64,000 nucleotides of DNA, taken from assembly GCF_030013205.1 (NCBI RefSeq), contig NZ_CP122648.1; one strand, written 5' to 3'. The position numbers were made by a program. Origin of the DNA: Escherichia coli (GTDB lineage Bacteria; Pseudomonadota; Gammaproteobacteria; Enterobacterales; Enterobacteriaceae). This document shows, piece by piece, positions 40,701 through 43,053 of the stretch (positions within the stretch are counted from its first letter, which is position 1; every line of letters starts with the position of its first letter).

Positions 40701-43053
40701 TTCGTACGTTACAGCGAAATGAAGTTCCCGCAGAACGATAAGAAATAAGTTTCCTCCCTTCCTTGCTAAGCCCTCTCAACCGAGAGGGCTTTTTCAATTC
40801 TATTTCCCTGACAAATCATGCGGATATAAAATTTACCATTTGTATTGATAATTGTTATCGTTTGCATTATCGTTACGCCGCAATCAAAAAAGGCTGACAA
40901 ATCAGAGGCTGTTCCGGCTTTCTGGGATGATCACCTGCATACAAATAAGTCCACCGCGATGCAGCCGTACGCAAGGGGACATGAAGAAGATGTGAGCGAT
41001 AACCCATTTTATTTTCGTAGTTACCTCATGGAGATATGGAATGTTTAGGTTGAACCCTTTCGTACGGGTCGGGCTGTGTTTGTCCGCTATTTCTTGTGCA
41101 TGGCCTGTGTTAGCGGTCGATGATGATGGCGAAACGATGGTTGTCACTGCATCTTCCGTTGAACAAAACCTTAAAGATGCACCTGCCAGTATCAGCGTCA
41201 TTACCCAGGAAGACCTGCAGCGAAAACCGGTACAGAATCTGAAGGATGTCCTCAAAGAAGTGCCTGGCGTACAACTGACGAACGAAGGGGATAACCGTAA
41301 GGGCGTTAGTATTCGTGGTCTGGACAGCAGCTATACCCTGATTCTCGTCGACGGTAAACGCGTTAACTCCCGCAATGCCGTCTTCCGCCACAATGATTTC
41401 GATCTGAACTGGATCCCGGTCGATTCCATCGAACGTATTGAAGTGGTCCGTGGCCCGATGTCGTCGCTGTACGGTTCCGATGCGCTCGGCGGTGTAGTGA
41501 ATATCATCACCAAAAAAATCGGTCAGAAATGGTCGGGTACCGTTACCGTCGATACCACCATTCAGGAACATCGCGATCGCGGTGATACCTATAACGGTCA
41601 GTTCTTTACCAGCGGACCATTAATTGATGGTGTGCTGGGAATGAAAGCTTACGGCAGCCTGGCAAAACGTGAAAAGGATGACCCGCAAAACTCAACGACC
41701 ACCGATACCGGAGAAACGCCGCGTATTGAAGGATTCTCCAGCCGCGACGGCAATGTGGAATTTGCCTGGACACCGAATCAAAATCACGATTTTACTGCCG
41801 GATACGGTTTCGACCGTCAGGATCGTGATTCCGACTCGCTGGACAAAAACCGCCTGGAACGCCAGAACTACTCCGTCAGCCATAATGGTCGTTGGGATTA
41901 CGGCACCAGCGAACTGAAATACTACGGTGAGAAAGTCGAGAACAAAAACCCTGGCAACAGCAGCCCGATAACTTCCGAAAGCAATACGGTCGACGGCAAA
42001 TACACGTTGCCGCTGACGGCGATTAATCAGTTTCTCACGGTTGGCGGTGAATGGCGTCACGACAAACTTAGCGATGCGGTGAACCTGACCGGGGGAACCA
42101 GTTCCAAAACGTCTGCCAGCCAGTACGCGCTATTTGTTGAAGATGAATGGCGGATCTTCGAGCCGCTGGCGCTGACGACCGGCGTACGTATGGACGATCA
42201 TGAAACCTACGGTGAACACTGGAGTCCGCGTGCCTACCTGGTTTATAACGCCACCGACACCGTAACGGTGAAAGGGGGCTGGGCGACGGCATTTAAAGCA
42301 CCTTCTCTGTTGCAACTTAGCCCTGACTGGACGAGCAATTCCTGCCGTGGCGCATGTAAGATTGTGGGTAGCCCGGATCTGAAACCAGAAACGAGCGAAA
42401 GTTGGGAACTGGGGCTTTACTACATGGGCGAAGAAGGCTGGCTGGAAGGGGTTGAATCCAGCGTGACCGTTTTCCGTAACGATGTGAAAGATCGTATCAG
42501 CATCAGCCGTACGTCTGACGTCAACGCTGCACCGGGCTACCAAAACTTTGTTGGTTTTACAGCGAACGGTGTGCCGGTATTTAGCTACTACAACGTTAAC
42601 AAAGCTCGTATTCAGGGCGTGGAAACCGAACTGAAAATTCCGTTCAACGATGAATGGAAACTGTCACTCAACTACACCTACAACGATGGTCGTGATGTCA
42701 GCAACGGCGAAAATAAACCTTTATCCGATCTGCCGTTCCATACCGCTAACGGTACGCTGGACTGGAAACCGCTGGCGCTGGAAGACTGGTCATTCTATGT
42801 TTCTGGTCACTATACCGGGCAGAAACGCGCCGACAGCGCGACGGCTAAAACACCGGGCGGTTATACCATCTGGAATACCGGTGCGGCCTGGCAGGTGACT
42901 AAAGACGTCAAACTGCGCGCAGGCGTGCTGAACCTTGGCGACAAGGATCTCAGTCGTGACGACTACAGCTATAACGAAGACGGACGTCGTTACTTTATGG
43001 CAGTGGATTATCGCTTCTGACAGGAAGATGCCCGGCGAACCGGGCAGACTTTA

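What the first reader, a model, noticed from the sequence alone, without database searches (positions are those of the whole stretch)
41041..43020. CirA receptor is four residues shorter than the K-12 protein
The ORF is complete, with the same signal peptide and C-terminal TonB-dependent-receptor motif, but is 659 aa where I recall 663 aa for K-12 CirA. A small in-frame indel in this colicin Ia/Ib and phage receptor would most plausibly fall in a surface loop and could change colicin, phage or siderophore-antibiotic recognition. Both the reference length and the location of the difference are from memory and unverified.
Basis: partly seen in the sequence, partly recalled or inferred. Interest (0 to 1): 0.3.

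Follow-up and report, generated by a model that had tools for sequence, protein, structure and literature searches.

The report
Common short-loop allele of CirA receptor
The gene is an intact copy of the E. coli iron-siderophore and colicin receptor CirA, carrying a common, ancient natural variant (the same protein as in O157:H7) that shortens the tip of one bacteriocin-binding surface loop by four residues; it is ordinary, though nobody has tested what the variant does.

Summary
Window 41041-43020 (+) is a complete 659-aa cirA ORF, and K-12 CirA is 663 aa.

The difference is not a simple deletion. K-12 residues 507-515 (ETGANGRRI, 27 nt) are replaced by TANGV (15 nt, window 42559-42573). The only other change is the unlinked substitution I547L. 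Signal peptide, TonB box, plug and C-terminus are identical to K-12.

The patch sits at the tip of extracellular loop L8. L7 and L8 are the two loops that swing open for colicin Ia and microcin V. The key ligand-contact arginines R116, R436 and R490 are kept. R513, a predicted minor microcin V contact, and R514 are lost.

The allele is not strain-specific:
- The protein is identical to O157:H7 EDL933 CirA (WP_000489254.1).
- The short patch is in 1019 of 5426 complete E. coli genomes; the long patch is in 4382.
- It recombines freely with its flanks.
- It also occurs in E. albertii and another divergent Escherichia lineage.

It is therefore an old dimorphism at a loop tip that varies in length across Enterobacterales. 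Cefiderocol papers have already listed it as "mutations". Any functional effect on colicin Ia/Ib, microcin V or cefiderocol is untested. The gene and allele are already known, and interest is low to moderate.

The parts
41041..43020 (+). cirA coding sequence, 659 aa plus stop; catecholate siderophore / colicin I receptor
   Evidence: ORF. NCBIfam equivalog NF007478 CirA scores 1445 bits against a cut-off of 745. Pfam Plug and TonB_dep_Rec barrel both match. About 99% identical to PDB 2HDF/2HDI/9NN6 'Colicin I receptor'. 100% nucleotide identity to cirA of CFSAN018748, and protein WP_000489254.1 is identical to that of EDL933.
41041..41115 (+). signal peptide (residues 1-25), identical to K-12
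   Evidence: The mature PDB chain 2HDF starts at V26. The N-terminus is identical in the window and K-12.
41134..41151 (+). TonB box (T32-A37, TMVVTA)
   Evidence: Residue range given in PMC12511343. The sequence is identical to K-12/PDB.
41170..41496 (+). plug domain (Pfam PF07715, residues 44-152), contains R116
   Evidence: R116 present.
41701..42936 (+). beta-barrel domain (Pfam PF00593, residues 221-632)
   Evidence: The AF2 model shows 22 barrel strands.
42346..42348 (+). codon of R436 (loop L7), a colicin Ia / MccV contact residue, conserved
   Evidence: invariant in 37 orthologues.
42508..42510 (+). codon of R490 (base of loop L8), the main MccV / colicin Ia contact residue, conserved
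   Evidence: invariant in 37 orthologues.
42559..42573 (+). the variable patch: 15 nt ACAGCGAACGGTGTG (T507 A N G V511) replacing the 27 nt / 9 residues E507-I515 (ETGANGRRI) of K-12; tip of loop L8; removes R513 and R514
   Evidence: DNA and protein alignments. Located at a hairpin turn between strands 15 and 16 in the AF2 model. Short patch in 1019 and long patch in 4382 of 5426 genomes.
42667..42669 (+). codon CTC = Leu at K-12 position 547 (I547L), an independent common polymorphism
   Evidence: L547 occurs with both the short and the long patch.
40841..40873 (+). promoter-like site (TTGATA-17-TATCGT) overlapped by Fur-box-like 19-mers (14/19 matches to GATAATGATAATCATTATC)
   Evidence: The core is identical to K-12 and EDL933. 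That it functions as the cirA Fur-regulated promoter is inferred from established knowledge of cirA, not tested here.
43029..43046 (+). terminator-like hairpin between the convergent genes cirA and yeiG
   Evidence: consensus scan only.

Best explanation
This is the ordinary chromosomal cirA gene in its usual lysP-cirA-yeiG-folE position. It is intact and very probably functional as a Fur-regulated, TonB-dependent catecholate-siderophore receptor. It carries the 'short-L8' allele. In this allele the tip of extracellular loop 8 reads F-TANGV-P, where K-12 reads F-ETGANGRRI-P. The loop hairpin is therefore four residues shorter and lacks the two arginines R513 and R514. The two loop-tip forms are an old dimorphism, not a recent deletion. 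Both occur within E. coli (about 19% short, 81% long) and in other Escherichia species, and recombination has uncoupled the 15/27-nt patch from the rest of the gene. The rest of the protein is almost invariant. L7 and L8 are the loops that cover the ligand pocket and are pushed aside and contacted by colicin Ia/Ib and microcin V. My preferred (inferred, untested) mechanism is that the shorter, less basic L8 tip tunes recognition by bacteriocins, whose contacting residues are acidic. This would happen without affecting siderophore transport. Bacteriocin-driven balancing or frequency-dependent selection would then keep both forms in the population. Shown here: the identity of the gene, its intactness, the location of the patch, its frequency, its recombination with the flanks and its cross-species distribution. 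Inferred: any effect on bacteriocin or cefiderocol susceptibility, and selection as the cause of persistence.
For: Identity and intactness:
- for gene identity and intactness
- for synteny
- for an upstream region nearly identical to K-12

Nature of the difference.

Loop assignment:
- The AF2 secondary structure places residues 507-511 at a hairpin turn between barrel strands 15 and 16. That is the same loop as R490.
- PMC12511343 assigns R436 to L7 and R490 to L8. It reports L7/L8 displacement of 11.5-12 A for MccV and 17-21 A for colicin Ia. It also predicts a minor R513-MccV E61 interface.
- PMC12925061 states that ColIa engages L7 and L8.

Population data:
- 1019 genomes carry the short patch and 4382 the long one. 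All hits are at least 95% identical to one form or the other, so no intermediates were seen.
- In 17 sampled alleles there are no fixed differences outside the patch.
- 27 of 55 informative sites show all four gametes with patch type, the nearest 7 nt and 9 nt away.
- Only 0-3 amino-acid changes occur elsewhere, against 80 polymorphic nucleotide sites.

Age:
- The short patch is in E. albertii and in the divergent SCPM-O-B-8794 lineage.
- The long patch is in E. whittamii, E1V33, E69 and Salmonella, at 7-20% background divergence.
- Patches of the same class differ between species.

Phenotype hints:
- O157:H7 Sakai was not inhibited by 36 colicin Ia/Ib producers but was inhibited by colicin V producers (PMC6323730).
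- O157:H7 CirA is a working receptor for Mcc1229 (PMC8853679).
Against: - No experiment links the patch to any phenotype.
- The colicin Ia/Ib insensitivity of O157:H7 is conventionally explained by O-antigen shielding.
- Purified plant-made ColIa/ColIb are described as broad-spectrum against the Big-7 STEC serovars.
- The experimentally important contacts R116, R436 and R490 are unchanged. R513 is only a computationally predicted minor contact.
- I could not read the colicin Ia-Cir structure paper or obtain coordinates, so contact of residues 507-515 with colicin Ia is unverified.
- The AF2 model is of moderate confidence (mean pLDDT 60.9; 74-81 in this region).
- Cross-species sharing could reflect introgression rather than long-term balancing selection.
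- The sample for the recombination analysis is small (17 alleles).
Confidence: 0.55

Rival explanations
1. Selectively neutral loop-length variation. The L8 tip tolerates almost any short sequence. The two forms persist and spread between lineages by recombination or introgression alone and have no effect on any ligand.
For: This position varies in length and sequence across 80 Enterobacterales orthologues, with 4-10 residues between the conserved F/L and P. The key contact residues are unchanged. Both alleles support Mcc1229 action: O157:H7 PA2 and a K-12-type indicator were both sensitive, and resistance arose on cirA loss.
Against: Only two sharply distinct haplotypes were found in 5401 E. 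coli genomes, with no intermediates. Both are shared across Escherichia species 8-12% apart. The rest of the protein is under strong purifying selection. A neutral polymorphism is not expected to outlive species splits. The loop is a documented bacteriocin-binding element.
Confidence: 0.35
2. The dimorphism is maintained by a selective agent other than colicin Ia/Ib or microcin V. Candidates are host antibodies against an exposed epitope, an unidentified CirA-dependent phage, or differences in siderophore or siderophore-antibiotic (cefiderocol) uptake.
For: L8 is surface exposed. The allele appears in lists of cirA variants from cefiderocol-non-susceptible isolates. Several sampled short-allele genomes carry inactivated cirA, which shows the gene is under antagonistic pressure.
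Against: In those cefiderocol studies other determinants are present (NDM or CMY enzymes, PBP3 insertions), and the allele is common in the general population. No BASEL phage depended on cirA. I found no data on antibody or siderophore specificity.
Confidence: 0.08
3. A recent, strain-specific in-frame deletion (or a sequencing or assembly artefact) that damages the receptor in this isolate.
For: Only the length difference itself.
Against: The same 15-nt patch occurs in 1019 complete genomes, including EDL933. The change is a multi-event replacement, not a single deletion. The protein is identical to a widely distributed RefSeq protein. O157:H7 CirA is demonstrably functional as a microcin receptor.
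Confidence: 0.02

Closest known systems
E. coli O157:H7 EDL933 CirA (RefSeq WP_000489254.1, 659 aa)
   Same: The amino-acid sequence is identical, and so is the lysP-cirA-yeiG-folE context.
   Different: There are 24 synonymous nucleotide differences. The window's DNA allele is at least 99% identical in only 99 genomes, and 100% identical to strain CFSAN018748.
E. coli K-12 CirA / colicin I receptor (663 aa; PDB 2HDF apo, 2HDI with colicin Ia R-domain, 9NN6 with microcin V)
   Same: The signal peptide, TonB box, plug, barrel, R116/R436/R490 and C-terminus are the same. The sequence is identical outside 507-515 except for I547L.
   Different: The L8 tip is ETGANGRRI in K-12 and TANGV here. It is four residues shorter and lacks R513 and R514. 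R513 is predicted to touch MccV E61.
CirA orthologues of other Enterobacterales (Salmonella, Klebsiella, Kosakonia: long tip with G-[KR]-R-[VI]-P; Enterobacter, Citrobacter, Buttiauxella, Rahnella, Pantoea, Erwinia: short tip)
   Same: The window's tip has the same length (5 residues between F/L and P) as the short type that predominates in the order. E. albertii has the near-identical TADGV.
   Different: The sequence of the tip differs (for example NADGE in Enterobacter). The long type of K-12 and Salmonella looks like a derived insertion with a basic pair (the direction of change is inferred).
Surface-loop polymorphism of other colicin and phage receptors such as OmpC, FhuA, BtuB, FepA (general knowledge, not examined here)
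   Same: Variation is concentrated in exposed loops that are used by bacteriocins, while the rest of the protein is conserved.
   Different: Here the variation is a single, sharply bounded two-state patch rather than diffuse loop diversity. No phenotype has been demonstrated.

Membership tests
CirA (catecholate siderophore receptor / colicin I receptor), NCBIfam NF007478 equivalog | Full-length match above the curated cut-off | tested here: met
   1445.3 bits against a cut-off of 745; residues 1-659 cover profile positions 1-663.
CirA | Near identity to the structurally characterised colicin I receptor | tested here: met
   2HDF/2HDI and 9NN6 match at E = 0. The only differences are the patch, I547L and the depositors' engineered Met residues.
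CirA | Conserved chromosomal position lysP-cirA-yeiG-folE | tested here: met
CirA | Ligand-pocket arginines R116, R436, R490 used by colicin Ia and MccV | tested here: met
   All three are present and invariant in 37 orthologues. Their roles are taken from PMC12511343.
CirA | L8 tip as in the K-12 reference (R513/R514) | tested here: not met
   Residues 507-515 are replaced by TANGV. This is a property of the K-12 allele class, not of the family: 19% of E. coli and most orthologues lack it.
CirA | Sensitivity to colicin Ia/Ib and transport of catecholates | not testable with these tools
   Needs killing and uptake assays. Indirect evidence: the identical protein in O157:H7 serves as the Mcc1229 receptor.
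TonB-dependent transporter | N-terminal plug domain plus 22-stranded beta-barrel | tested here: met
   Pfam PF07715 (117.6 bits) and PF00593 (217.7 bits). The AF2 model has 22 barrel strands but only moderate confidence.
TonB-dependent transporter | TonB box near the mature N-terminus and a C-terminal aromatic residue | tested here: met
   TMVVTA at 32-37 and a terminal ...VDYRF, both identical to K-12.
Fur regulon gene | Fur box overlapping the promoter | tested here: inconclusive
   Two overlapping 19-mers match the Fur consensus at 14/19, within a promoter-like site at 40841-40873 whose core is identical to K-12. Binding was not tested.

The most novel reading that the evidence does not exclude
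The two-state L8 tip of CirA (ETGANGRRI versus TANGV) is a trans-species balanced polymorphism maintained by bacteriocin warfare. In this reading the short, arginine-less tip lowers binding of colicin Ia/Ib, and perhaps microcin V, while preserving iron uptake. It would then contribute to the long-noted colicin Ia/Ib insensitivity of O157:H7, which has been attributed solely to O-antigen shielding.
Probability: 0.2. Interest if true: 0.55.

Novelty: already known. Interest (0 to 1): 0.22.

Why it matters
Scientifically the stakes are modest. There are three practical points.

1. K-12 CirA is the reference for all structural and mutational work on colicin Ia/Ib, microcin V and cefiderocol uptake. 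About one in five E. coli, including O157:H7, carries a different L8 tip that lacks two arginines in a ligand-binding loop.

2. Resistance-genomics pipelines that compare with K-12 report this natural allele as a set of 'mutations'. One paper lists E507T, 508-509del, 513-514del and I515V. Another lists E507fs and R514fs, which I infer to be the same patch mis-called as two frameshifts. It can therefore be wrongly scored as a cefiderocol-resistance determinant.

3. If the dimorphism does alter bacteriocin recognition, it would be a compact, easily testable example of receptor polymorphism maintained by bacterial warfare. It would also bear on colicin- or microcin-based control of STEC.

Tried and rejected
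- I tried to read Buchanan et al. 2007 (the Cir-colicin Ia R-domain structure) by PubMed id and PMC id. It is not held. Schulz et al. 2015 (colicin activity per STEC serovar) is not held either. A search for '2HDI' with 'colicin Ia' found nothing. The direct contact list for colicin Ia could therefore not be checked.
- AF2 model coordinates are not exposed to scripts, so no distances could be measured. Only the secondary-structure string was used.
- I considered and rejected a single 12-nt deletion (one search shows a multi-event replacement), a difference in the signal peptide and a strain-private mutation.
- I considered linkage of I547L to the patch. It is rejected: L547 occurs on long alleles and I547 on short ones.
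- I considered CirA as a phage receptor. The only hit was the BASEL paper, which states that no phage showed a phenotype on cirA::kan.
- I did not attempt an association with colicin Ia/Ib or ColV plasmid carriage, because the search tool lists at most 60 records per query.
- The window is not simply strain CFSAN018748. cirA is 100% identical, but the window differs elsewhere.

Full report
**Observation.** The six-frame ORF list shows a complete ATG-to-stop ORF at window 41041..43020 on the + strand, 659 aa. It lies between lysP (39279..40748, +) and yeiG (43051..43887, -), the canonical E. coli arrangement.
- The protein matches the NCBIfam equivalog for CirA at 1445 bits (cut-off 745). It also matches the Pfam Plug and TonB-dependent-receptor barrel domains.
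- It aligns end to end with the solved 'Colicin I receptor' chains 2HDF/2HDI and 9NN6.
- The K-12 derivative TG1 has a 1992-bp cirA encoding 663 aa.

**What the difference is.** Nucleotide and protein alignments show a replacement, not a clean deletion.
- K-12 codons 507-515 are GAG ACG GGC GCT AAC GGA CGG CGC ATA (E T G A N G R R I).
- The window has ACA GCG AAC GGT GTG (T A N G V) at 42559-42573.
- Getting from one to the other takes at least three separate codon deletions and about five substitutions within 27 nt. The ~90 nt on either side are identical.
- Outside this patch the window protein differs from K-12 only by I547L.
- The signal peptide, the TonB box (T32-A37), the plug and the C-terminal ...VDYRF are identical.

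**Where it is in the protein.** Residue numbers in the recent Cir/microcin V cryo-EM paper (PMC12511343; PDB 9NN6) are precursor numbers. TonB box T32-A37, C435/R436 and R116 all match the window translation.
- That paper assigns R436 to loop 7 and R490 to loop 8.
- An AlphaFold2 model of the window protein gives 22 barrel strands. Confidence is moderate overall (mean pLDDT 60.9) and 74-81 in this region.
- The model puts residues 507-511 at the turn of a small hairpin (strands 503-506 and 512-515). This hairpin lies inside the loop between barrel strands 15 (472-487) and 16 (512-534), the same loop that holds R490.
- The patch is therefore the tip of extracellular loop L8.

**What is known about L7 and L8.**
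- In the apo structure they cover the ligand pocket.
- They move 11.5-12 A on microcin V binding and 17-21 A on colicin Ia binding.
- They are the loops engaged by the colicin Ia R-domain.
- The experimentally important arginines R116, R436 and R490 are retained in the window protein and invariant in 37 orthologues.
- Of the residues removed, R513 is mentioned once in the literature I could read, as a computationally predicted minor interface with MccV E61.
- I could not obtain the colicin Ia-Cir paper or coordinates. Direct contact of 507-515 with colicin Ia is unverified.

**How common it is.**
- The window's CirA protein is RefSeq WP_000489254.1. The same protein is found in O157:H7 EDL933, in the swine isolate CFSAN018748 (100% identical DNA) and in a baboon isolate.
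- The window and EDL933 genes differ at 24 nucleotides, all synonymous.
- A 72-nt probe spanning the short patch hits 1019 of 5426 complete E. coli genomes. The corresponding 84-nt long-patch probe hits 4382.
- Every hit is at least 95% identical to one probe or the other. I therefore saw no intermediate forms, for example one lacking only the RR pair.
- Short-patch carriers include O157:H7, O55:H7, an isolate named ST167, and poultry, pig and human isolates.

**Recombination and age.** I fetched 10 short and 7 long alleles.
- Outside the patch there are 80 polymorphic sites and no fixed difference between the classes.
- 27 of 55 informative sites show all four gametes with patch type, the closest being 7 nt upstream and 9 nt downstream.
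- Mean pairwise differences are 20.5 within short alleles, 20.8 within long alleles and 24.8 between the classes.
- The patch is thus uncoupled from its flanks by recombination.
- At the protein level these alleles differ at only 0-3 further positions (E465D, I174V, I547L and singletons). I547L occurs with both patch types.

A scan of one genome per species returned 80 orthologous loci.
- Within Escherichia, the short patch is present in E. albertii (TADGV; ACC GCA GAC GGT GTG) and in a divergent lineage labelled E. coli SCPM-O-B-8794 (TPNGV).
- The long patch is present in E. whittamii, Escherichia sp. E1V33, strain E69 and Salmonella arizonae. Background cirA divergence is 7-12% within Escherichia and about 20% to Salmonella.
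- Patches of the same class differ between species roughly as the background does.
- Across the order this loop tip is a length hot spot. A 5-residue tip predominates (Enterobacter, Citrobacter, Buttiauxella, Rahnella, Pantoea, Erwinia).
- A 9-residue tip with a basic pair (G-[KR]-R-[VI]-P) occurs in Salmonella, Klebsiella/Raoultella, Kosakonia, Trabulsiella, Phytobacter and part of Escherichia.
- It is therefore at least as reasonable to call the K-12 form the insertion-bearing one. The direction of change is an inference.

**Interpretation.** The gene is intact and, by every sequence criterion I could test, a normal CirA.
- The identical protein in O157:H7 is a working receptor. Spontaneous and engineered cirA mutants of O157:H7 PA2 lose sensitivity to microcin Mcc1229, and complementation restores it.
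- The dimorphism has several features: two sharply distinct states, no intermediates, free recombination right up to its edges, sharing across species, and a position in a bacteriocin-binding loop of an otherwise strongly constrained protein.
- This is what one expects of a site under long-term diversifying or balancing selection. Bacteriocins are the obvious agent, because their residues near the Cir arginines are acidic (ColIa D350, E357, D358, E369; MccV D85, E61).
- One published phenotype fits. O157:H7 Sakai was not inhibited by any of 36 colicin Ia/Ib-gene-positive isolates, although colicin V producers did inhibit it.
- That evidence is weak. The authors and earlier work attribute it to O-antigen shielding. 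Purified ColIa/ColIb are described elsewhere as broad-spectrum against the Big-7 STEC. A preprint on Salmonella shows only that CirA sequence differences between species contribute partly to colicin Ib resistance.
- I put about 0.55 on the overall account. The descriptive part is near-certain and the bacteriocin-tuning part is perhaps 0.3-0.4. I put about 0.35 on a functionally neutral loop polymorphism.

**Comparison with what is known, and novelty.** The gene, the protein and this allele are already in public databases.
- The allele has also been written down, though not recognised as a natural dimorphism.
- A European cefiderocol surveillance paper lists an E. coli isolate with CirA 'E465D; E507T; 508-509DEL "TG"; 513-514DEL "RR"; I515V; I547L'.
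- A comparative-genomics paper lists cirA 'E507fs ... I547L, R514fs' among variants exclusive to cefiderocol-resistant isolates. That pair of 'frameshifts' sits exactly at the two ends of the patch. I infer it is the same allele mis-called.
- The Cir/MccV paper discusses conservation with ConSurf but, in the parts I read, does not mention this indel.
- The practical value of the finding is mainly as a caution for K-12-referenced variant calling and for extrapolating K-12 structural work to O157:H7. The open question is whether the L8 tip matters for bacteriocins.

**Verdict.** The difference does lie in a surface, colicin-binding loop. But the allele is common and ancient rather than a strain-specific indel, any functional consequence is untested, and the phage-receptor role is unsupported. 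Already known; interest about 0.2.

Noticed in passing
window 27511-28278 (target-site duplication at 27502-27510 and 28279-28287): A 768-bp IS1 element with 23-nt terminal inverted repeats (GGTGATGCTGCCAACTTACTGAT), InsA (91 aa) and InsB' (167 aa) ORFs, and a 9-bp direct duplication CAAACACTA. It is inserted in the fruA-psuK intergenic region and is absent at this site from the otherwise closest genome, CFSAN018748.
   Followed up: partly
L087 (MS20675), L088 (strain ST167), L090 (GPEC60-33-648): cirA: Three of the nine short-allele cirA genes fetched from other genomes are pseudogenes (W164*, or frameshifts giving 104- and 262-aa products). None of the eight long-allele genes is a pseudogene. 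The sample is small and the cause was not explored; selection by bacteriocins or cefiderocol is possible.
   Followed up: no
window 31848-32546 (-) and 33717-34967 (+): yeiL and nupX are open full-length ORFs in the window (232 aa and 416 aa). They are annotated as pseudogenes (internal stop; frameshift) in CFSAN018748, the genome whose cirA is 100% identical. The window strain is therefore related to that genome but not the same.
   Followed up: partly
window 30509-31776 and 33696-34963: Two paralogous NupC/NupG-family nucleoside transporter genes (psuT and nupX), about 80% identical at the DNA level, show up as reciprocal secondary BLAST matches.
   Followed up: no
window 40749-41040 (cirA upstream region): Compared with K-12 and EDL933, the window has a few private substitutions in the cirA 5' region (for example A->C and G->T just upstream of the Fur-box/promoter core, and two changes in the long 5' UTR). 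The Fur-box core itself is unchanged. No effect on regulation was assessed.
   Followed up: no
L004-L083 (CirA orthologues), alignment columns for K-12 residues 484-524: Closely related genera, and even congeners, differ in L8-tip class. For example Kluyvera genomosp. 1 has the long type while K. ascorbata and K. georgiana have an extra-short 4-residue tip. This suggests the loop tip is exchanged or re-evolved repeatedly across Enterobacteriaceae.
   Followed up: no
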